Below, piece after piece: positions 6,843 to 63,618 of a DNA stretch of 64,000 nt. This stretch comes from Escherichia coli. GTDB lineage: Bacteria > Pseudomonadota > Gammaproteobacteria > Enterobacterales > Enterobacteriaceae. Where the stretch lies: the NCBI RefSeq assembly GCF_044647545.1, contig NZ_CP172818.1; one strand, given 5' to 3'. Position 1 is the stretch's first letter, and each line of letters opens with the position of its first letter. The notes under the pieces were generated by a model. It was not told the origin of the DNA, made no database searches, and worked only from the letters and a program-made list of their open reading frames with translations. The position numbers and the translations under genes are program-made.

Positions 6843-8453
6843 ATGAGCATTCCATTTACCCGCTGGCCGGAAGAGTTTGCCTGTCGCTATCGGGAAAAAG
6901 GCTACTGGCAGGATTTGCCGCTGACCGACATTCTGACGCGACATGCTGCGAGTGACAGCATCGCGGTTATCGACGGCGAGCGGCAGTTGAGTTACCGGGA
7001 GCTGAATCAGGCGGCGGATAACCTCGCGTGTAGTTTGCGCCGTCAGGGCATTAAACCTGGTGAAACCGCGCTGGTACAGCTGGGTAACGTCGCTGAATTG
7101 TATATTACCTTTTTCGCGCTGCTGAAACTGGGCGTTGCGCCGGTGCTGGCGCTGTTCAGCCATCAGCGTAGTGAACTGAACGCCTACGCCAGCCAGATTG
7201 AACCGGCGTTACTGATTGCCGATCGCCAACATGCGCTGTTTAGCGGGGATGATTTCCTCAACACATTTGTTGCAGGGCATTCTTCCATTCGCGTGGTGCA
7301 ACTTCACAACGACAGCGGTGAGCATAACTTGCAGGATGCGATTAACCATCCGGCTGAGGATTTTACTGCCACGCCATCTCCTGCTGATGAAGTGGCCTAT
7401 TTCCAGCTTTCCGGCGGAACCACCGGCACACCGAAACTCATCCCACGCACTCATAATGACTATTACTACAGCGTGCGTCGTAGCGTCGAGATTTGTCAGT
7501 TCACACAACAGACGCGCTACCTGTGCGCGATCCCGGCGGCTCATAACTACGCCATGAGTTCACCGGGATCGTTGGGGGTATTTCTCGCTGGCGGCACTGT
7601 CGTTCTGGCTGCCGACCCCAGCGCCACGCTTTGCTTCCCATTGATTGAAAAACATCAGGTGAACGTCACCGCGCTGGTGCCACCAGCAGTCAGCCTGTGG
7701 TTACAAGCGCTGACCGAAGGTGAAAGCCGGACGCAGCTTGCTTCCCTGAAACTGTTACAGGTCGGCGGCGCCCGTCTTTCTGCCACGCTGGCAGCGCGTA
7801 TTCCCGTAGAGATTGGCTGCCAGTTACAGCAGGTGTTCGGTATGGCGGAAGGGCTGGTGAACTACACCCGACTTGATGATAGCGCGGAGAAAATTATCCA
7901 TACCCAGGGTTACCCAATGTGTCCGGACGATGAAGTGTGGGTTGCCGATGCCGAAGGAAATCCACTGCCGCAAGGGGAAGTTGGACGCCTGATGACCCGC
8001 GGTCCGTACACCTTCCGTGGCTATTACAAAAGCCCGCAGCACAATGCCAGCGCCTTTGATGCCAACGGTTTTTACTGTTCCGGCGATCTGATCTCTATTG
8101 ATCCAGAGGGTTACATCACTGTGCAGGGGCGCGAGAAAGATCAGATCAACCGTGGCGGCGAGAAGATCGCTGCCGAAGAGATCGAAAACCTGCTGCTGCG
8201 CCATCCGGCGGTGATCTACGCCGCACTGGTGAGCATGGAAGATGAGCTGATGGGCGAAAAAAGCTGTGCTTATCTGGTGGTAAAAGAGCCGCTGCGCGCG
8301 GTGCAGGTGCGTCGTTTCCTGCGTGAACAGGGTATTGCCGAATTTAAATTACCGGATCGCGTGGAGTGTGTGGATTCACTTCCGCTGACGGCGGTCGGGA
8401 AAGTCGATAAAAAACAATTACGTCAGTGGCTGGCGTCACGCGCATCAGCCTGA
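6843..8453 (+). CDS. entE: 2,3-dihydroxybenzoate-AMP ligase (adenylation enzyme)
   Basis: 536 aa; adenylate-forming core motif SGGTTGTPK. Confidence 0.95.
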
Positions 8454-54775: not shown

Positions 54776-55753
54776 TTACAGTAAATCTTCAATCTCACGG
54801 ATTTTTTGACTGACATCCCTGGTACCGGATGACTGAGCTTTACGATACAGATCGAGAGCCTGTCGGAGATCGACAGGTCTTCCTTCTCCGTAATGATACA
54901 TAATGGCAAGGTTATACCAGGCAGTGGCATTATCGCATTCAGCGGCTTTCGTAAACCATTCAAAGGCGGCCTGATAATCTTTCTCAACGCCTTGTCCATG
55001 TTTATACATATAACCGATGTTGACGTAAGCGCCGACGCTTTCCTGAGCGGCAGCCTTCAGATACCAGTACATCGCTTGCTTATAGTCCTGGTCCACCCCT
55101 TCGCCAGCGTTATAATCCCATGCAATTTGAAACTGGGCATGCCGATTACCCTGCTGTGCGCTTTTCAAATACCAGAATGCGGCGAGTGTCTTATTTTGAG
55201 CAACGCCTTCTCCGTCTTTATAGAGATCGGCCAGGTTGTCTTGCGCGTAACTATGGCCTTGTAATGCAGCTTGTTTGTACCAGAAAAATGCCAGCGCATA
55301 GTCTTGTGCGACTCCGTTGCCATTTCTGTACATCCACCCAAGATTATTTTGCGCATAAGACATTCCGCTCTCCGCGGCTATCTGATACCAGGCAACCGCT
55401 TCTTTATAGTTGGGGTCTTCTCCACGATCCTGTATCCAGCCAAGGGCGTTGGAAGCGAAAGTATGGCCTTGTAGGGCAGCTTTTTTCAGCCAAAAGATGG
55501 CTTGCCCATTATCTTTATGACGGCTTTTATCCTCGGTATACTTTTGCCCTAAGGAATATTGTGCTTCACAATGACCTTGCTCAGCGGCAAGCTTCAGCCA
55601 GTAAAAGGCCTTTTCGTCGTCCGGAGAGTCAATTGCGCTATCGCGATTATAATAAAACCCAATAATATATTGAGCCTCGCAATCGCCTTTTTCAGCACGT
55701 TCGATAATCTCATCTATTGATAAATTATCGCAGCAACTTGACGTAAAAATCAT
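54776..55753 (-). CDS. ybeQ: Sel1-repeat (TPR-like) protein, no signal peptide
   Basis: 325 aa from ATG at 55753; tandem roughly 36-aa repeats with recurring A-x-QG-x-x-A-Q-x-x-L-G / YxxG motifs. Confidence 0.88.
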   Translation of the reverse strand: MIFTSSCCDNLSIDEIIERAEKGDCEAQYIIGFYYNRDSAIDSPDDEKAFYWLKLAAEQGHCEAQYSLGQKYTEDKSRHKDNGQAIFWLKKAALQGHTFASNALGWIQDRGEDPNYKEAVAWYQIAAESGMSYAQNNLGWMYRNGNGVAQDYALAFFWYKQAALQGHSYAQDNLADLYKDGEGVAQNKTLAAFWYLKSAQQGNRHAQFQIAWDYNAGEGVDQDYKQAMYWYLKAAAQESVGAYVNIGYMYKHGQGVEKDYQAAFEWFTKAAECDNATAWYNLAIMYHYGEGRPVDLRQALDLYRKAQSSGTRDVSQKIREIEDLL

Positions 55754-55916
55754 TATCATTTCCTTATGGTTGCATATAAAGCATATTATATTTTTATGTG
55801 TTCCATTTTTGCGTAAGCCTTATTTTATGCGTATTATGTTGCGTCAGAAAAGTATAAATAAATGAGCCTCGCAACGTGGTTAATATTCATTGAATGAATA
55901 TTTAAGGATAAATTAT

Positions 55917-56624
55917 ATGGACATGGAGTCGCAAAAAATATTGTTTGCACTTTCCACTCCGATGGAAATACGCAATGAATGCTGTTTACCTTCGCATTCA
56001 TCCCCCAAAATGTATTTAGGTACACGCTTTTTTGACCTTTCTTCCTCCTGGGGAATTGATGACCGTGATGACCTGCTGCGCACAATTCACCGAATGATCG
56101 ATAACGGTCATGCCGCTCGGTTGGCAGGGCTTTATCACCGCTGGTTTCGTTATTCTCCGTGTGAATGGCGTGACTATCTTGCTGAACTAAATGAGCAAGG
56201 TCAGGCTTATGCGCAATTTGTCGCCAGCACCGCCGAATGCTGTGGCGAAGGGGGAATCAAAGCCTGGGATTATGTCCGGATGGGTTTTTTAAGCCGAATG
56301 GGCGTACTTAATAACTGGTTGAGTGAAGAAGAAAGCCTGTGGATCCAGTCGCGCATTCATCTACGGGCTCTACGTTATTATAGTAACTGGCAGCAATACT
56401 TTGCCGGTTATACCTTTGGTCGGCAATATTGGCAGTCTCCCGAGGATGATGATCTGCCTTTATTACGTGAATTCTTAGCGCGTAAAGAATACGACGATTC
56501 CGGCAATGATATGTTTTATCAATTATTTGCCAGTGACGATGCATATTACGCGACCTTACCCTGGCAACCACTGGCTGACTACCCCACATGCCCGGAAACG
56601 CTTAAGGATATGAGCGACCTATGA
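55917..56624 (+). CDS. ybeR: DUF1266-family protein, paralog of YbeU
   Basis: 235 aa from ATG at 55917; stop overlaps djlB start (ATGA). Confidence 0.88.
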
Positions 56625-58048
56625 AAAATTGCTGGAAGATTCTCGAAATAGAGGAAACGACTGACGTCGATATTATCCGCCGCGCTTATCTGGCGCTGTT
56701 ACCGTCCTTTCATCCAGAAACCGATCCGCAGGGTTTTAAACAACTTCGTCAGGCGTATGAGGACGCGCTACGGATTGCGCAGTCGCCTGCTAAATCTGTT
56801 TGGCAACCAGAAGAACATGAAGTTGCAGAACATGAAATTCTGCTCGCCTTTCGTGCGTTACTCGCCTCTGATAGCGAACGTTTTCTGCCCTCTGCCTGGC
56901 AGCGATTCATTCAGCAATTAAATTATTGCTCGATGGAAGATATTGATGAATTACGCTGGTCGCTGTGCACAATAGCCATGAACACTGCCCATTTATCCTT
57001 CGAGTGCGTGGTGTTATTAGCAGAAAGATTGCGGTGGTTGCAGGAGGAAAACGTCGGGGAAATAGACGAAGAAGAACTGGAATCCTTTTTATATGCCATT
57101 GCGAAGGGGAATGTTTTTAACTTCCAGACCATTCTGCATCTGCCCGTTGCCGTACAAAATGACACCATTGATTTTTACCAAATGTTCGCTCGGATTTGGT
57201 CATCGCATCCAGAATGGCTGACATTGTATTTAGCGCAACATCGCGCAGTGATTATCCCCGATGATGCAAATTTGCACAGAAATTTACTCCGCTGGTATAG
57301 CACAAGCCGTCTGGATATCCCCGAACTTCTGGATTACGCCCGGTCGTGGCGGGAAGCTGAACCTGATAATGAAGATGCGCGTTATTATGAATACGCGCAA
57401 CGCGTCTATTGTGGAGAAGGCGAAAGCCTGCTGGCAGAACTTTGTGACTACTGGCGCGAGTATCCCTCCACCCAGGCGGATGCTTTAATGTTGCAATGGT
57501 GCCGTCAGCATCGGGTCGATTATTACCCGTTAGTGGTGATGATGATTGAAGCGCGTGATCTGGTTAACGATCAGGGAAAACCGCTACTTTATGTCCCTGG
57601 TGACAGCGCTCGTACGCGTTTTCATTTATACGAAATACTCAGTGATGAAAAACTCTCTGCGCTGGGGCGTTCTCTGGTCGAGATGGTTTTGCACAAAGGA
57701 CGTAAGCCGCGGATCTCACTCACGCGTGATACAGAACATACCTTATGGTCATTATATCTAGTTGCCAAACAATTAGTGCAGGCCAGCCAACCGACAGAAG
57801 AATCATTAATGCCGATTGTGAGCCGCCTTGATGCAGAAGATCGTTGTCCTCTGGAAGCATTAATTATTCGACGGTTATTAATTCAGGCGGCGAATTTTAC
57901 CGAGAAGCAAACCGTCGAACCGGAGCCGCAACCGCAGTCGATGCCCGTTGACGATGGTGGGCCGGGCTGTCTGGGCGTCATCAAAATTATTTTCTACATT
58001 TTTATCTTTGCCGGTTTAATAGGGAAAATACTCCATCTGTTCGGGTGA
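56621..58048 (+). CDS. djlB: J-domain-like protein with C-terminal membrane anchor, paralog of DjlC
   Basis: 475 aa; N-terminal J-like helix pair with HPE where HPD is expected (HPETDP); C-terminal hydrophobic tail [20 protein letters not shown]. Confidence 0.9.
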
Positions 58049-58057
58049 CAGTCGACG

Positions 58058-58612
58058 TTAATGTGCGGGAAGCCCGGCAAGTAATCTTTCCGCGTTTTTG
58101 TAATGTTGTTTGGCGGCCAGTTTTAACCATTTTTGAGATTCATAATGGTTAACATTAATACCTGAGCCATTTCTGTAGATCAAACCCAAAGTATATTGAG
58201 CATGAGCATACCCTTGTTCAGCTGCTTCCTTATACCAGAGAATTGCTTTACGGGTATCGGGTTTGACCCCCAGACCTTTGAGGTAGATCCACCCCAGTTT
58301 ACTTTGCGCGCGTGGATTTTCCTGTTCCGCTGATTGCTCATACCAGTATCTCGCCTGTGTATAATCCAGTGGTTTACCGTCGCTACCATGAAGATAAAAT
58401 TCTCCAAGGCGATATTGCGACGTTGAGTGACCATGAATCGCGGAAAGCTCCGTGGCTGCCGTGGTGAATGGAAGACTGCCCGGTGAGCTTAAATAATCAA
58501 AGGCATAATTCGCCATGGCTTTATCACGCAACGTCGTTTTCTTGGGTTGGCTAATACAGGTTATTGCTGCAACTATAAATATTGCGAATGTATACATTAA
58601 TTTTTTATTCAT
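58058..58612 (-). CDS. ybeT: Sel1-repeat protein with N-terminal signal/anchor sequence
   Basis: 184 aa; hydrophobic N-terminus [21 protein letters not shown] then Sel1-type repeats. Confidence 0.88.
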
Positions 58613-58713
58613 GTGTGAATGCTTCGATTTTCTTTTTATTTTGAAAGCGTCAAGTTTATACTCATCAATAATAAAAAAGTAGTCAGTTAATGCACTTAAG
58701 GGATTATTAACAA

Positions 58714-59421
58714 ATGAATAAGGAAGAACAATATCTTCTTTTTGCGCTTTCTACGCCCATGGAAATACTTAATCAGGGTTGCAAGCCCGCGCATGACTCG
58801 CCAAAAATGTATACCGGGATAAAAGAATTCGATCTCTCATCATCCTGGGGAATAAATAATCGTGATGATTTAATTCAGACTATTTATCAGATGACCGATG
58901 ATGGTCATGCCAATGATTTAGCTGGCTTATATCTGACATGGCATCGCTCTTCCCCTGAAGAGTGGAAAGCATTAAATGCTGGTGGCTCGGAGAGAGGGTT
59001 GATTTATACCCAATTCGTTGCCCAAACCGCTATGTGTTGTGGGGAAGGGGGAATCAAAGCCTGGGATTATGTGCGGATGGGTTTTTTATCACGGGTTGGT
59101 GTGCTCAACAAGTGGCTGACGGAAGACGAGAGTTTATGGCTGCAATCGCGCGTCTATATACGAGCACACCATTACTATCACAGCTGGATGCACTATTTTT
59201 CCGCCTATTCGTTAGGGCGTCTCTACTGGCAATCTTCTCAGTGCGAAGACAACGCTTCGCTACGCGAGGCGCTAACCCTGTACAAATACGATAGCGCCGG
59301 GAGTCGGATGTTCGAAGAGCTGGCAGCGGGAAGCGACCGTTTCTATGCCACGCTTCCCTGGCAGCCATTAACTGTCCAGCCTGAATGCCCGGTAACGCTT
59401 AAGGATGTGAGCGACCTATGA
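58714..59421 (+). CDS. ybeU: DUF1266-family protein, paralog of YbeR
   Basis: 235 aa; stop overlaps djlC start (ATGA). Confidence 0.9.
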
Positions 59422-60869
59422 AAACATGTTGGCAAATCCTCGAAATTGAAAGCACGACGCAAATAGACATTATCCGCCAGGCTTATCTTGTTCGCTTACC
59501 GTTGTGTCATCCCGAAACCGATCCGCAGGGGTTTAAAGCATTACGCCAGGCCTATGAAGAGGCGCTGCGACTGGCGGTAAATCCTGTCGAGGAGGCAGAT
59601 GATGAAGAAAAAGATGCCGCCGCTGAACATGAAATACTACGTGCATTCAGGGCATTACTGGATTCTGAAAGTGATCGTTTTCAGCCCTCCGCCTGGCAGA
59701 AATTTATTCAGCAATTAAATACCTGGAACATGGAGGATGTCGATCAATTACGCTGGCCGCTGTGTGCAGTCGCTATAGAAGCGCGATATCTTTCATTAAA
59801 TTGTGCTTCTTTGCTGGCAGAGCGTTTGAACTGGCATTCGTTTAATGACAGCGAAGGAATGGATGAGGAAGAAAGGGAGGCTTTTCTTGAGGCCATTCAG
59901 GCTGGTGATTGTTTCGATTTCCTTAGCCTTCTGGAATATCCCGTCGCGTTGCAGAACCAGACTGTTGAGTATTACTTCGCGCTGGAACGCTGCTGCCGTT
60001 ACCATCCTGACTATGTCACTGCGTTTATGGCAATGGAAGGTCCGTGGTTCATTCCTGATGATGTCAAGTTACATCGCAAACTGTTGCGCTGGTACAGCTC
60101 GGTGAAAACAGGTATGGCGGAACTTATTCCTGTTGCCCAACAGTGGCAAGCAGAAAATCCAGAAAGCGAAGATGCCCGTTATTACCAGTGTGCGCAACGG
60201 TTGTACTGTGGCGAGGGGGAAAGCCTGCTTGCCGATCTCTGCGCATACCGGGAGAGTTACCCATCTACACAAGCTGATAATTTGTTGTTGCAGTGGAGCA
60301 AGCGTCATTGCCCGGATTATTTCGCGTTATTAGTGATGGTTATCGAAGCGCGAAGCATGATAGATGCGCAAGGTCAACCGTTGAAATATGTTCCTGGTGA
60401 GAGCGCCCGGACGCGGCTGTTATGGGCGGAAATTTTACATAGCGGAAAATTATCGCCGTTAGGTCAATCGTTTATTGAGTCGTTATTCTTCAAGCGCAAA
60501 GCATGGGCATGGTGGAAATCGAGAGTCGGTAGCGAGACAGAACAAGATTCACCGTTACTGGATTTGTATCGGGTAGCGGAACAGGTTGTGCTGGAAGCGT
60601 TCCCGAAACAAGAGATGCTGGCCCGTCTTAATACAAGGCTGGAAGGTGGAGATGCTCATCCATTAGAGGCCATTATCACGCGGATGCTGTTGACGAAAGT
60701 GAAACTCGAGCCGGAGGATGAAGATGTCGATGAGCCAACACCTGAAAACCACGAAGAAAAAAATGATGAGGATGAAAAACCACAGAGCATTACCAGCATT
60801 ATCAAAATCAGCTTAACGGTGCTGGTGATAGGTTATGCTCTCGGAAAAATCGCGATGTTGTTTAGCTGA
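59418..60869 (+). CDS. djlC: J-domain-like co-chaperone of HscC with C-terminal membrane anchor
   Basis: 483 aa; N-terminal J-like region with HPETDP; acidic linker; C-terminal TM tail [17 protein letters not shown]. Confidence 0.92.
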
Positions 60870-60884
60870 GGATGTGTTTTTTGC

Positions 60885-60925
60885 GCCGATGCCGGATGCA
60901 GCGTTTATGCCGCATCCGGCAGCCG
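60885..60925. repeat. REP (repetitive extragenic palindrome) element between convergent djlC and hscC
   Basis: gccggatgcagcgtttatgccgcatccggc matches the GCCGGATGCGGCG... REP consensus family. Confidence 0.6.
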
Positions 60926-60928
60926 TGT

Positions 60929-62599
60929 TTAAGGGATCTCAATAGCCAAATAATCGCTCGCCCGTCGCCGAACTTCATCGACGCGGGCCATATCGTTTGA
61001 CTGCAACGCCGCATCAAAATCGGTGATCACCCGGCCGATCTCTTCTCGCTCGTCACCCAGCGCCCGCGCCCACAACTCTTCCAGTTTGGCCTTAAAGGTG
61101 CGGTTGATGAGCATATCGCGCGGATAAATTTTCAATGCGGATAACCGCGTCCGACTCTCTTCAATCTGCTGTGCGCTCAATGTTACAGGACTGTGATTAA
61201 TGACTCTGGACTTAACGCTGCCGTCTTCCAGAAGCACGTCAACTTCAAGCAACCCGTTGATATCATAACTAAAGCGAATATCAATCGACTGATAAGCCCC
61301 GGTTTTCTTCAACGGCACATCGAAGGATTCCACCAGAATGTTATTTTTAACTTTGTGGTTTTCTCCCTGATAGACGTTAACCGTAATTGAATCCTGTTCC
61401 CGGTGCATGGTCGAGTAAGTTTCTACACGCGACACCGGTACAGTGGTGTTTCGTTCAATAATCGGCGAGAAAATGCCGGAAACGCCCTGGCGGTTAACTT
61501 CAACACCCAACGAGTAAGGGCAAATATCAGTGAGGATCACCTCTTCAATATCTTCACTGCGTAAGCGGCAGGCGGCCTGGATTGCTGCGCCCAGCGCGAC
61601 AATGGTGCTCGGATCGTAACTTTGATACGGTAATTTGCCAAACAGACGCACGGCGATTCGCTGCACCAGCGGCATTTGTGATGCGCCGCCAACCAGCACC
61701 AGACTGTCGATTTGACTTGGCTTCAGACGTGCATCGCGCAACGCCTGTTCAATCGGTACTCGCAAGCGATTGAGCAGCGGCAACCACAAATCTTCCAGTT
61801 CGTTCTCGTAAAATTCGCACTCACGCGTTTCTTCCTGACACTGCCAGCTAATTTGCAGCGGTAATTGATTGCTGCATTTTGCCGCTTCCACGCTGGTGTA
61901 CAGGGCTGCCAGCTCACTTTCGTTGAGCATGTTTTTAGCCACTGCGGCGCGTTTTAAAACTTCATCCACCAGCATATGAGTAAAATCTTCGCCGCCAAGA
62001 AAGTTGTCGCCAGCGGAGGCGTGAACTTCAATCACCGGCGTGGCGTATTCGAGCACCGTGACGTCAAACGTGCCGCCACCGAGATCAAAAACCAGCGAGC
62101 GGGTATTTTGTTGCGTATGCAGGCCATATGCCATCGCAGCTGCTGTGGGTTCATTAATTAAGCGTACCGCATTTAACCCGGCTAACTCCGCTGCTAAACG
62201 GGTATGCTTGCGTTGTTCATCGCTGAAATAAGCCGGAACGGAGATCACCACATCTTTAATCGGACGTTGCAGAAATTCTTCGGCATCTTCTTTTAATGAG
62301 CGTAATACCAAAGAGGACAGTTCTGGCGCGTTAAATGTGTCGCTGCCTAACCGCCAGTTGGTATTACTGCCCATTGCACGTTTAAATAACGCTGCCGTTT
62401 TATCCGGATGCGAAGTACGCCGTGATACAGCCGGTTTTCCGACTAAAATATGATTATTTTCATCCATGCTAATTATGGATGGTGTTAAATATTCACCGAA
62501 CTTATTTGGAATTAATTGCGCGGCACCGTCTTTCCAGACGGCAATTAAACTATTGGTAGTACCGAGATCGATACCAATGGCGAGTTCTGCATTATCCAT
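60929..62599 (-). CDS. hscC: Specialised Hsp70-family chaperone (Hsc62)
   Basis: 556 aa; Hsp70 ATPase motifs IDLGTTNS and DLGGGTFD; shorter C-terminus than DnaK. Confidence 0.95.
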   Translation of the reverse strand: MDNAELAIGIDLGTTNSLIAVWKDGAAQLIPNKFGEYLTPSIISMDENNHILVGKPAVSRRTSHPDKTAALFKRAMGSNTNWRLGSDTFNAPELSSLVLRSLKEDAEEFLQRPIKDVVISVPAYFSDEQRKHTRLAAELAGLNAVRLINEPTAAAMAYGLHTQQNTRSLVFDLGGGTFDVTVLEYATPVIEVHASAGDNFLGGEDFTHMLVDEVLKRAAVAKNMLNESELAALYTSVEAAKCSNQLPLQISWQCQEETRECEFYENELEDLWLPLLNRLRVPIEQALRDARLKPSQIDSLVLVGGASQMPLVQRIAVRLFGKLPYQSYDPSTIVALGAAIQAACRLRSEDIEEVILTDICPYSLGVEVNRQGVSGIFSPIIERNTTVPVSRVETYSTMHREQDSITVNVYQGENHKVKNNILVESFDVPLKKTGAYQSIDIRFSYDINGLLEVDVLLEDGSVKSRVINHSPVTLSAQQIEESRTRLSALKIYPRDMLINRTFKAKLEELWARALGDEREEIGRVITDFDAALQSNDMARVDEVRRRASDYLAIEIP

Positions 62600-62682
62600 T
62601 GCATTTATATCTTGAAAGAAAAAGAGATAAACAGATTAAGACCACCCAGGTAACGCGTGGTGATCTTAATCAATGACGTGTG

Positions 62683-63618
62683 TTAAGCGTAAAATTTCAG
62701 ACGATCGGCCAGTAAATCAACAAAGCCCTGACGATCAACATCGACCATTACAGTGGCATTCGGTTTATTGCCAGTCAGATAATAATAATCAACAACCGTC
62801 ATACCCTGGGTATATTTCCCTTGTGTTTCCACGCCAACCCAGCGCTCAACAGTGGTAAACAACTCCGGTTTTAACAGCCAGGCGATGGTGCATGGGTCAT
62901 GCAGCGGTGCGCCGACAAAGCCCCATTTTTCGTCTTTATGATATTCGAGGAAGAAATCCAGCAGTTCGGCAACAATGGTTGAAACAGGGTTGCCAATCGC
63001 GCGGAAACGCTCAGTGTCTTCAACGTGGATTTGTGCTTTGTGAGTAACATCCAGACCGGCCATCACCACCGGAATTCCTGACTGGAAGACAATTTCTGCC
63101 GCTTCCGGGTCAACGTAAATATTAAATTCAGCCGCAGGCGTCCAGTTACCAAGCCCCATTGCGCCGCCCATAATCACGATACGGGCAATTTTGCTATGCA
63201 GTTCCGGGTGGCTATTGAGCAGCAAGGCAACGTTCGTTTGCGGTCCGGTAGAAACAATGGTGACAGGTTCCGCACTTTCACGCAGCGTTTTCGCCATCAG
63301 CTCCACCGCCGTACAGTTTTGCGGTGCGAACGTCGGTTCCGGTAATGCAGGGCCGTCGAGACCGCTTTCGCCGTGCACATTGTCCGCGATAATCAAATCA
63401 CGCATTAATGGTTTTACCGCACCGCTTGCTACCGGAATATCGGTGCGATTAAGCAAGGTCAGCATACGCAGAACATTGCGTAAGGTTTTTTCTGGTGTCT
63501 GGTTTCCGGCGGAAGACGTAATTGCTTTGACATCAAGCTCTGGTGAGGCGAGGGCGAGAACGATTGCGATAGCGTCATCATGACCAGGGTCGCAATCTAA
63601 CAGAATTGGCAGTGCCAT
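62683..63618 (-). CDS. rihA: Pyrimidine-specific ribonucleoside hydrolase
   Basis: 311 aa from ATG at 63618; nucleoside hydrolase motif DCDPGHDD. Confidence 0.93.

What the first reader, a model, noticed from the sequence alone, without database searches (positions are those of the whole stretch)
56621..60869. Both J-like proteins carry HPE instead of the canonical HPD and end in a hydrophobic tail anchor
The DNA directly encodes cat-cc(a/c)-gaa-acc-gat-ccg (H-P-E-T-D-P) in both djlB and djlC, at the position where J-domains normally have the invariant HPD tripeptide that contacts Hsp70. Both proteins end in a single hydrophobic segment ([20 protein letters not shown] and [17 protein letters not shown]), consistent with tail-anchored membrane proteins. 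A non-canonical motif shared by two paralogs suggests dedicated pairing with HscC rather than with DnaK.
Basis: seen in the sequence. Interest (0 to 1): 0.6.

Follow-up and report, generated by a model that had tools for sequence, protein, structure and literature searches.

The report
Known HPE J-proteins DjlB and DjlC
These are the E. coli membrane-anchored co-chaperones DjlB and DjlC, whose HPE motif (in place of the usual HPD), C-terminal membrane tail and exclusive partnership with the Hsp70 HscC are all real but already published.

Summary
The window is the E. coli ybeQ-ybeR-djlB-ybeT-ybeU-djlC-hscC locus. Both J-proteins encode H31-P32-E33 exactly where J-domains carry HPD, in the loop between helix II and helix III. 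Both end in the only strongly hydrophobic segment of the protein.

HPE in DjlB and DjlC is stated in a 2023 PNAS survey and a 2026 review. DjlC is an experimentally proven tail-anchored protein. HscC is stimulated only by DjlC, and the DjlC J-domain cannot replace that of DnaJ.

What I add:
- The Glu is invariant: 109/109 close homologues and 116/116 distant cluster representatives, with no HPD. It is more invariant than the His, since NPE, SPE and LPE variants exist.
- Almost every relative I examined lies beside an HscC-type Hsp70.
- HscC keeps the DnaK residues that touch the HPD Asp (R167, Q378). It has lost acidic J-docking residues (deletion of 208-211, D477S) and has D481N, so specificity is probably spread over several positions.
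- A DUF1266 gene overlaps the J-protein start codon in 78 of 80 loci from Enterobacterales, Gilliamella, Pseudomonas and metagenomes. This looks like an unstudied third component.

The parts
56621..58048 (+). djlB (ybeS) coding sequence, 475 aa: J-domain, helical middle domain, disordered linker, C-terminal membrane helix
   Evidence: ORF. RefSeq annotation djlB in a 100%-identical genome. 49% identical to DjlC.
56621..56782 (+). DjlB J-domain (residues 1-54, helices I-III; no helix IV seen)
   Evidence: Pfam DnaJ matches residues 4-47, E=0.0011. phmmer alignment to solved J-domains. The family profile hits only J-domains in the PDB.
56711..56719 (+). DjlB H31-P32-E33 codons (CAT CCA GAA)
   Evidence: Aligned on HPD of DNAJA1 and dnj-12.
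57974..58045 (+). DjlB C-terminal hydrophobic tail (about residues 452-475, [23 protein letters not shown]), predicted tail anchor
   Evidence: Only Kyte-Doolittle peak in the protein, 2.37. The tail is conserved in homologues.
59418..60869 (+). djlC (ybeV) coding sequence, 483 aa, same architecture as DjlB
   Evidence: ORF. RefSeq annotation 'co-chaperone DjlC'. AlphaFold model with mean pLDDT 81.
59418..59579 (+). DjlC J-domain (residues 1-54)
   Evidence: Pfam DnaJ matches residues 4-47, E=0.084 alone and E=0.0018 for the 66-residue N-terminus. 38 of 39 family N-termini match at E<=0.001. Model helices 4-8, 16-26 and 36-54. Foldseek to 5nro_B: rmsd 2.0 over 56 columns.
59508..59516 (+). DjlC H31-P32-E33 codons (CAT CCC GAA)
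   Evidence: Lies in the loop between helices II and III of the model.
60789..60866 (+). DjlC C-terminal membrane helix (about residues 458-483), the tail anchor
   Evidence: Kyte-Doolittle peak 1.99. AlphaFold helix 458-482 after a disordered linker 433-456. Published as a bona fide tail-anchored membrane protein (PMC6794478).
60929..62599 (-). hscC, 556-aa specialised Hsp70, convergent with djlC; the partner chaperone
   Evidence: ORF. RefSeq hscC. 33% identical to DnaK, with the HscC hallmarks.
55917..56624 (+). ybeR, DUF1266 protein; its stop codon overlaps the djlB start codon (ATGA)
   Evidence: Same arrangement in 78 of 80 related loci.
58714..59421 (+). ybeU, DUF1266 protein, 61% identical to YbeR; its stop codon overlaps the djlC start codon (ATGA)
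54776..55753 (-). ybeQ, Sel1-repeat protein, first gene of the first copy of the duplicated module
   Evidence: RefSeq annotation. Sel1/TPR-type weak NCBIfam hits.
58058..58612 (-). ybeT, Sel1/TPR-repeat protein, first gene of the second copy of the duplicated module
   Evidence: RefSeq annotation. NCBIfam hits. Found beside the djlC orthologue only in the three Escherichia loci.

Best explanation
The two genes are djlB and djlC of E. coli. They encode class C J-domain co-chaperones that sit in the inner membrane by a single C-terminal helix, with the J-domain and a helical middle domain (Pfam DjlB_C_2nd) in the cytoplasm. Their J-domain is a divergent, three-helix version whose catalytic loop reads HPE-x-DP-x-GF instead of HPD.

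The J-domain docks on the ATP form of the neighbouring specialised Hsp70, HscC, and triggers its ATPase, recruiting HscC to the membrane. The Glu takes the role of the canonical Asp. HscC keeps the residues that DnaK uses to bind that Asp (R146 = DnaK R167, Q341 = Q378), the linker Leu (L356 = L391) and the Pro (P388 = P419).

Orthogonality to DnaK probably comes from a co-evolved set of changes rather than from D-to-E alone. HscC lacks the acidic loop 208-211 (including D211), has Ser for D477 and Asn for D481. The J-domain has lost R27, often has Gln at K48, and has a loop six residues shorter after the motif.

Shown here: the sequence features, the fold, conservation and synteny. Shown in the literature: HscC stimulation by DjlC only, no replacement of the DnaJ J-domain, and tail-anchored insertion of DjlC. 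Inferred: which residues confer specificity, and that DjlB behaves like DjlC.
For: - Identity of the locus: 100% match to annotated E. coli genomes.
- HPE at residues 31-33 in both proteins.
- J-domain homology, with hPE aligned on HPD. Single sequences versus the PDB give E down to 0.0027. The family profile versus the PDB returns 41 listed matches (E up to 0.01), all J-domains or J-like domains, best E 5e-8, including 5nro_B at 4.6e-7. Pfam DnaJ matches 38 of 39 family N-termini.
- Structure: helices 4-8, 16-26/29 and 36-54, with HPE in the loop, pLDDT 82. Foldseek top hits are J-domains; 5nro_B gives rmsd 2.0 and TM 0.63/0.66.
- Purifying selection on Glu: HPE in 109/109 homologues that include the N-terminus. 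H31, P32 and E33 are invariant in an alignment reaching down to 16% identity. xPE in 116/116 representatives, with 0 HPD.
- Tail anchor: the only hydrophobic peak is at the C-terminus, with helix 458-482 following a disordered linker.
- Synteny with HscC: 76 of 78 genome loci, plus distant TPR-fused relatives.
- HscC interface residues: R167, Q378, L391 and P419 equivalents invariant; deletion of 208-211, D477S and D481N in 74/74, 74/74 and 73/74 sequences, and also in distant partners.
- Literature: HPE in DjlB/DjlC (PMC10410713; PMC13254874). HscC is stimulated only by DjlC, and both proteins are described as tail-anchored (PMC8215388). The DjlC J-domain cannot replace that of DnaJ (PMC1906734). 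The DjlC transmembrane segment is required and sufficient for insertion (PMC6794478). DnaJ D35 contacts R167 and Q378, and K48 contacts D477 (PMC8215388).
Against: - Single-sequence Pfam matches are weak (E=0.0011 and 0.084). Foldseek E-values for the 66-residue model are all 0.07 or higher. The J-domain call therefore rests on the family profile and on consistency across methods.
- No helix IV is predicted, so the domain is atypical.
- The direct partners of the Asp are unchanged in HscC. Nothing here explains why Glu rather than Asp is fixed.
- No experimental data for DjlB were found. All of the biochemistry and localisation work concerns DjlC.
- The hydrophobic tails contain a conserved Lys/Arg 6-7 residues from the end, which makes them only moderately hydrophobic.
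- The genome scan used HPE in its search pattern, so that set cannot measure HPD frequency. Only can.
Confidence: 0.88

Rival explanations
1. The Glu is itself the specificity switch. HPE was fixed as negative design so that these J-domains cannot fire DnaK, and HPD J-domains cannot fire HscC. A single E33D or D35E swap would be enough to cross the systems.
For: - Glu is absolutely invariant in the family, while His is not.
- All examined relatives with xPE that have enough flanking DNA neighbour an HscC-type Hsp70.
- HscC is not stimulated by the HPD proteins DnaJ, CbpA or HscB (PMC8215388).
- HscC has Asn where DnaK has D481, the residue that pairs with R167/I168. The environment of the Arg that receives the acidic side chain therefore differs.
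Against: - R167 and Q378, the direct ligands of D35, are invariant in HscC.
- Several other interface positions have changed together on both partners: deletion of 208-211 with loss of R27, D477S with K48Q, and a shorter loop. A single-residue switch is therefore unlikely to be sufficient.
- The 2023 survey reports HPE in about 1,200 eukaryotic J-domains, in organisms with no HscC (PMC10410713).
Confidence: 0.25
2. HPE marks a degenerate, catalytically dead J-like domain (a 'type IV' J-protein) that only tethers or scaffolds and does not activate an Hsp70.
For: - The canonical HPD is missing.
- Individual Pfam scores are weak, and helix IV is absent.
- Some relatives even lack the His, reading NPE, SPE or LPE.
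Against: - Stimulation of the HscC ATPase by DjlC is published (Kluck 2002, as cited in PMC8215388). I recall the effect as 8-fold from the abstract of that paper, which I could not read here.
- The 2026 review calls HPE the only tolerated replacement (PMC13254874).
- P, E, DP and GF are invariant across sequences only 16-25% identical, which indicates a selected functional loop.
- The Hsp70 residues that read the motif are invariant in HscC.
Confidence: 0.04
3. The C-terminal hydrophobic segment is not a membrane span. It would instead be a buried or amphipathic helix of a soluble protein.
For: - The DjlC tail is only moderately hydrophobic (Kyte-Doolittle 1.99).
- Both tails carry a conserved basic residue inside the segment.
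- No dedicated transmembrane predictor was available here.
Against: - The segment is separated from the folded part by a disordered acidic linker of more than 20 residues (pLDDT below 50).
- It is the only hydrophobic peak and is conserved as a hydrophobic tail despite low sequence identity.
- The DjlC transmembrane segment alone targets a fluorescent reporter to the inner membrane and cross-links to YidC (PMC6794478).
Confidence: 0.03

Closest known systems
E. coli DjlB (YbeS) and DjlC (YbeV), co-chaperones of HscC (Kluck et al. 2002; Peschke et al. 2018; Pfam PF27158 DjlB_C_2nd)
   Same: They are the same genes. The locus is 100% identical to annotated E. coli genomes, with the same lengths, HPE motif, tail anchor and hscC neighbour.
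   Different: Nothing differs at the level of the finding. This strain's alleles are 95-99% identical to those of most other E. coli.
DnaJ J-domain with DnaK (structure 5NRO)
   Same: Helix I-II-III architecture with the catalytic tripeptide in the II-III loop. R22, Y25, F47, K51 and Y54 equivalents are conserved. The Hsp70 residues R167, Q378, L391 and P419 are conserved in HscC.
   Different: HPE instead of HPD. The loop after the motif is six residues shorter. No helix IV and no G/F region. R27 is lost. K26 is Leu in the Escherichia/Salmonella group but Arg in most relatives. HscC lacks D211 and D477 and has D481N. The DjlC J-domain cannot substitute for that of DnaJ (PMC1906734).
HscB with HscA (the Fe-S cluster Hsp70 system)
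   Same: A dedicated class C J-protein paired with a specialised, GrpE-independent Hsp70 encoded nearby. Both are orthogonal to DnaK/DnaJ (PMC8215388).
   Different: As far as I know HscB keeps the canonical HPD; this was not checked here. It is soluble and delivers a known client (IscU). DjlB/DjlC have HPE, are membrane-anchored, and their client is unknown.
DjlA, the membrane-anchored J-protein of E. coli
   Same: An inner-membrane J-protein with a single transmembrane helix and a cytoplasmic J-domain.
   Different: From my own knowledge of DjlA, not checked here: it is anchored by an N-terminal helix and carries its J-domain at the C-terminus, with canonical HPD. It works with DnaK (PMC8215388). 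DjlB/DjlC have the reverse topology (J-domain at the N-terminus, tail anchor at the C-terminus) and work with HscC.

Membership tests
J-domain (Pfam PF00226, DnaJ) | Significant sequence-profile match to the J-domain | tested here: met
   Alone the matches are weak: E=0.0011 (DjlB) and 0.084 (DjlC) over residues 4-47. 38 of 39 family N-termini match at E<=0.001, best 1e-8. The family profile versus the PDB returns only J-domains or J-like domains among its 41 listed matches, best E 5e-8.
J-domain (Pfam PF00226, DnaJ) | Helical hairpin of helices II and III with a short helix I (and usually helix IV) | tested here: met
   AlphaFold helices 4-8, 16-26 and 36-54, pLDDT 82. Foldseek top hits are J-domains, probability 0.99, 5nro_B rmsd 2.0. 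Helix IV is not predicted.
J-domain (Pfam PF00226, DnaJ) | Invariant His-Pro-Asp tripeptide in the helix II-III loop | tested here: not met
   The loop reads His-Pro-Glu in both proteins and in every relative: 109/109 and 116/116 xPE. The field accepts HPE as the one tolerated replacement (PMC13254874), so they are classed as functional J-domain proteins despite missing the literal motif.
J-domain (Pfam PF00226, DnaJ) | Stimulates the ATPase of a partner Hsp70 | not testable with these tools
   Published for DjlC with HscC (Kluck 2002, as cited in PMC8215388). Not reported for DjlB.
Tail-anchored membrane proteins | A single transmembrane segment at the extreme C-terminus, no signal peptide and no other hydrophobic span | tested here: met
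   Kyte-Doolittle windows of at least 1.6 occur only at residues 446-475 (DjlB) and 457-483 (DjlC). The hydrophobic tail runs to within a residue of the C-terminus. Helix 458-482 follows a disordered linker.
Tail-anchored membrane proteins | The transmembrane segment is necessary and sufficient for post-translational membrane insertion | not testable with these tools
   Published for DjlC (PMC6794478, citing Peschke 2018). Only inferred for DjlB.
DjlB/DjlC family (Pfam PF27158, DjlB_C_2nd) | Helical middle domain after the J-domain | tested here: met
   Cluster representatives 95-100% identical to the window proteins carry precomputed PF27158. The profile of the family recovers relatives over positions 3-425. 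The Pfam copy behind profile_search did not report this family.
HscC-type Hsp70 (the partner encoded at 60929-62599) | Short Hsp70 (~556-570 aa) with subfamily-specific deletions relative to DnaK, encoded next to a DjlB/DjlC-type J-protein | tested here: met
   556 aa, 33% identical to DnaK, with a 23-residue and a 4-residue deletion in the nucleotide-binding domain. The hallmarks are invariant in 74 orthologues and in distant partners.

The most novel reading that the evidence does not exclude
The HscC system may be a conserved three-part machine whose J-domain uses a different activation geometry from the canonical HPD mechanism.

The Pro-Glu of the loop, not the His, is the invariant element. 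NPE, SPE and LPE variants still sit beside HscC-type Hsp70s. This loop would have co-evolved with HscC's D481N, D477S and 208-211 deletion.

The DUF1266 protein (YbeR/YbeU), translationally coupled to the J-protein across Enterobacterales, Gilliamella and Pseudomonas, would be an obligate subunit, adaptor or client that nobody has studied.
Probability: 0.3. Interest if true: 0.55.

Novelty: already known. Interest (0 to 1): 0.2.

Why it matters
For the finding as written, it matters little: the motif, the tail anchor and the HscC pairing are all in the literature.

The residual value is as a testable model of how Hsp70/J-protein pairs are kept orthogonal inside one cell. The E. coli HscC-DjlB/DjlC pair offers a natural D-to-E change, together with a small, defined set of co-varying interface residues. 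It also has an uncharacterised, tightly coupled DUF1266 partner that could point to the still unknown client or function of HscC.

Tried and rejected
- Fold search of the full-length DjlC model against the PDB gave no significant match (best E 0.024). The hits were only generic TPR-like helical repeats, so the middle domain stays unassigned.
- PADLOC showed no link to anti-phage defence systems for any of the seven genes. One marginal hit on YbeQ was disregarded.
- NCBIfam has no model for DjlB, DjlC, YbeR or YbeU.
- YbeU has no relative with a solved structure by sequence.
- I considered modelling an HscC-linker-J-domain fusion to inspect the Glu contacts. I dropped it because the structure tool returns no coordinates or contacts.
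- Covariation analysis on Glu33 is impossible because it never varies.
- The primary papers Kluck 2002, Kityk 2018, Peschke 2018 and Barriot 2020 are not held (one search did not find Kityk). Their results are quoted through papers that cite them.
- The internal HPD of DjlC (residues 196-198) was considered as an alternative catalytic site and rejected.
Full report
**What is there**

The window is the E. coli chromosome around leuS-ybeL-ybeQ-ybeR-djlB-ybeT-ybeU-djlC-hscC-rihA-gltL. The 6.9-kb stretch 55800-62700 is 100% identical to several complete E. coli genomes. It is present, at least in part, in 4439 of 5426 genomes. RefSeq annotation gives djlB at 56621-58048, djlC at 59418-60869 and hscC at 60929-62599 on the minus strand.

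**The observation**

The 18-base string CATCC(A/C)GAAACCGATCCG occurs exactly twice, at 56711 and 59508, with none expected by chance. In both genes it encodes H31-P32-E33-T-D-P. DjlB (475 aa) and DjlC (483 aa) are 49% identical end to end.

The quoted C-terminal strings are there. A 19-residue Kyte-Doolittle scan exceeds 1.6 only in the last 30 residues of each protein. The peaks are 2.37 and 1.99, against 1.53 and 1.34 for the best windows elsewhere.

DjlC also has a literal HPD at residues 196-198. It is unconserved, lies in the helical middle domain and matches no J-domain profile, so the stated refutation condition is not met.

**Is HPE at the HPD position?**

Yes.
- Each protein alone matches Pfam DnaJ only weakly, over residues 4-47 (E=0.0011 and 0.084).
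- phmmer against solved structures aligns fHPEtdP on fHPDknP of dnj-12 and DNAJA1.
- A profile of 39 diverse N-termini of the family returns 41 listed PDB matches (E up to 0.01), all J-domains or J-like domains. The best E is 5e-8, and the DnaJ chain of 5NRO scores 4.6e-7. hPE is again aligned on HPD.
- 38 of the 39 N-termini match Pfam DnaJ at E<=0.001.
- AlphaFold models (pLDDT 81-82) give helices 4-8, 16-26/29 and 36-54, which puts residues 31-33 in the helix II-III loop.
- The Foldseek top hits are J-domains. 5nro_B gives rmsd 2.0 Å over 56 columns, although E-values are weak for so short a domain.
- No helix IV is predicted. An acidic disordered linker follows helix III.

**Is the tail a membrane anchor?**

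The model shows a disordered stretch 433-456 followed by a helix 458-482 that runs to the C-terminus. The full-length ~480-aa homologues listed keep a hydrophobic tail, with a conserved Lys/Arg 6-7 residues from the end.

The literature settles this for DjlC. Its transmembrane segment is required and sufficient for targeting and insertion, and it is called a bona fide tail-anchored protein (PMC6794478, citing Peschke 2018). For DjlB the same is an inference from homology.

**Is it new?**

No.
- The 2023 PNAS survey of J-domain proteins names DjlB and DjlC as examples of the ~1% of J-domains with HPE (PMC10410713).
[quoted passage not shown] - The DjlC J-domain cannot replace that of DnaJ (PMC1906734).

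**What the comparative data add**

(a) The Glu is invariant.
- HPE is found in 109 of 109 homologues that include the N-terminus.
- H31, P32 and E33 are invariant in an alignment reaching 16% identity.
- Among the 150 best representatives of an exhaustive profile search, 116 of 116 with the motif region read xPE: HPE 105, NPE 8, and PPE, SPE and LPE one each. None reads HPD.
- The Glu is therefore more constant than the His.

(b) The partner is always HscC-like.
- In 78 species-representative genome loci (Escherichia, Klebsiella, Pragia, Limnobaculum, Pectobacterium, Brenneria, Rahnella, Yersinia, Budvicia, Leminorella, Gilliamella and many Pseudomonas), an HscC homologue lies convergently downstream in 76.
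- TPR-fused relatives with HPE, NPE or SPE, from contigs of unidentified organisms with quite different gene neighbourhoods, also abut a 563-567-aa Hsp70.
- One short contig showed no Hsp70.

(c) The interface.
- Across 74 HscC sequences, the residues that in DnaK contact the HPD motif (R167, Q378, L391, P419; PMC8215388) are invariant.
- Three changes are fixed: DnaK 208-211 (including D211) is deleted in 74/74, D477 is Ser in 74/74, and D481 is Asn in 73/74. The two distant partner Hsp70s that were aligned share these changes, with Thr instead of Ser at the D477 position.
- On the J side, R22, Y25, F47 and K51 equivalents are kept. R27 is lost, K48 is Gln in 50 of 82 sequences, M30 is Pro, and the loop after the motif is six residues shorter.
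- D211 and D477 are docking partners of helix II and K48 in the DnaK-DnaJ structure. Loss on both sides looks like co-evolution.
- D481A raises DnaK's basal ATPase 80-fold. As I recall from the abstract of Kluck 2002, which I could not read here, HscC has a high basal rate, so the natural Asn may relate to that. This is my inference.

**Mechanism**

The best-supported account has four steps.
1. The tail helix places DjlB/DjlC in the inner membrane, with the N-terminus in the cytoplasm.
2. The three-helix J-domain docks on HscC-ATP.
3. Glu33 replaces Asp35 in contacting R146 and Q341 and triggers hydrolysis, so HscC is activated at the membrane on an unknown client.
4. Orthogonality to DnaK arises from the co-varying interface set, with Glu as one member of it.

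The first two steps and the stimulation are published for DjlC. The contact geometry and the specificity determinants are inferred.

**Side observations**

- A DUF1266 gene precedes the J-protein gene in 78 of 78 genome loci. Its stop codon overlaps the J-protein start by 4 nt in 71 of 80 loci and by 1 nt in 7 of 80. In the window this is at 56621-56624 and 59418-59421.
- DUF1266 is essentially absent from the searchable literature.
- Outside the Escherichia/Salmonella/Klebsiella group the J-protein is 880-910 aa with hydrophobic segments near its C-terminus. One carries a DUF805 domain. The E. coli proteins therefore look like a shortened form.
- The Sel1-DUF1266-J-protein triplet is duplicated in tandem in this window.

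**Verdict**

Interest in the finding itself is low. The moderate leads are the DUF1266 coupling and the invariance of the Pro-Glu.

Noticed in passing
window 55917-56624 / 56621-58048 and 58714-59421 / 59418-60869; loci L003, L006, L008-L085: A DUF1266 gene (ybeR, ybeU) lies directly upstream of each J-protein gene, with its stop codon overlapping the start codon (ATGA; both junctions read GACCTATGAAAA). The same arrangement holds in 78 of 78 genome loci from Enterobacterales, Gilliamella and Pseudomonas. The overlap is 4 nt in 71 of 80 loci and 1 nt in 7 of 80. This suggests translational coupling and an unstudied third component of the HscC system. DUF1266 is almost absent from the searchable literature.
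   Followed up: partly
proteins P0218, P0219, P0242, P0243, P0246, P0249, P0255, P0263 (NPE), P0256 (SPE), P0258 (LPE); loci L086, L090, L092: Distant TPR-fused relatives replace the His of the motif by Asn, Ser or Leu but keep Pro-Glu-x-Asp-Pro-Glu-Gly-Phe. The three checked each lie next to a 563-567-aa Hsp70; the one aligned (L086) carries the HscC hallmarks. His-to-Gln inactivates canonical J-domains, so these may be inactive or may work differently.
   Followed up: partly
loci L012-L085, L003, L006; proteins P0127-P0171: Outside the Escherichia/Salmonella/Klebsiella group the orthologous J-protein is 880-910 aa. It has an extra ~450-residue C-terminal part ending in one to three hydrophobic segments (Pfam DUF805 in one case). 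The ~480-aa single-tail E. coli DjlB/DjlC look like a shortened derivative.
   Followed up: partly
window 54776-60869: The triplet Sel1-repeat gene (minus strand), DUF1266 gene and J-protein gene is present twice in tandem: ybeQ-ybeR-djlB and ybeT-ybeU-djlC. Protein identities are 61% for the DUF1266 pair and 49% for the J-protein pair. Among the 78 genome loci, Sel1-repeat neighbours were found only in the three Escherichia ones.
   Followed up: partly
window 60929-62599 (hscC, minus strand): HscC, and 73 orthologues adjacent to HPE J-proteins, share invariant differences from DnaK at the J-domain and clamp interface: deletion of DnaK 208-211, L392T, K414R, K421S, D477S and D481N. R167, Q378, L391 and P419 are kept.
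   Followed up: yes
window 58022-58024 (DjlB K468) and 60846-60848 (DjlC K477): A basic residue (Lys or Arg) sits inside the hydrophobic tail, 6-7 residues before the C-terminus. It is conserved in all 25 aligned family members. It may snorkel to the periplasmic face or tune the hydrophobicity of the tail anchor.
   Followed up: no
locus L010 (Escherichia sp. E1V33), 7001-8449: The DjlC orthologue of this genome reads YPE instead of HPE ([13 protein letters not shown]). It could be a natural loss-of-function allele or a sequencing error.
   Followed up: no
window 60003-60011 (DjlC residues 196-198): DjlC contains a literal HPD tripeptide in its middle domain. The position is not conserved (DjlB has HPE there) and lies outside any J-domain match, so it is coincidental.
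   Followed up: yes
window 55800-62700: The locus is not universal in E. coli. 4439 of 5426 complete genomes have some match, and only 3661 carry at least 80% of the 6.9-kb stretch in one place.
   Followed up: no
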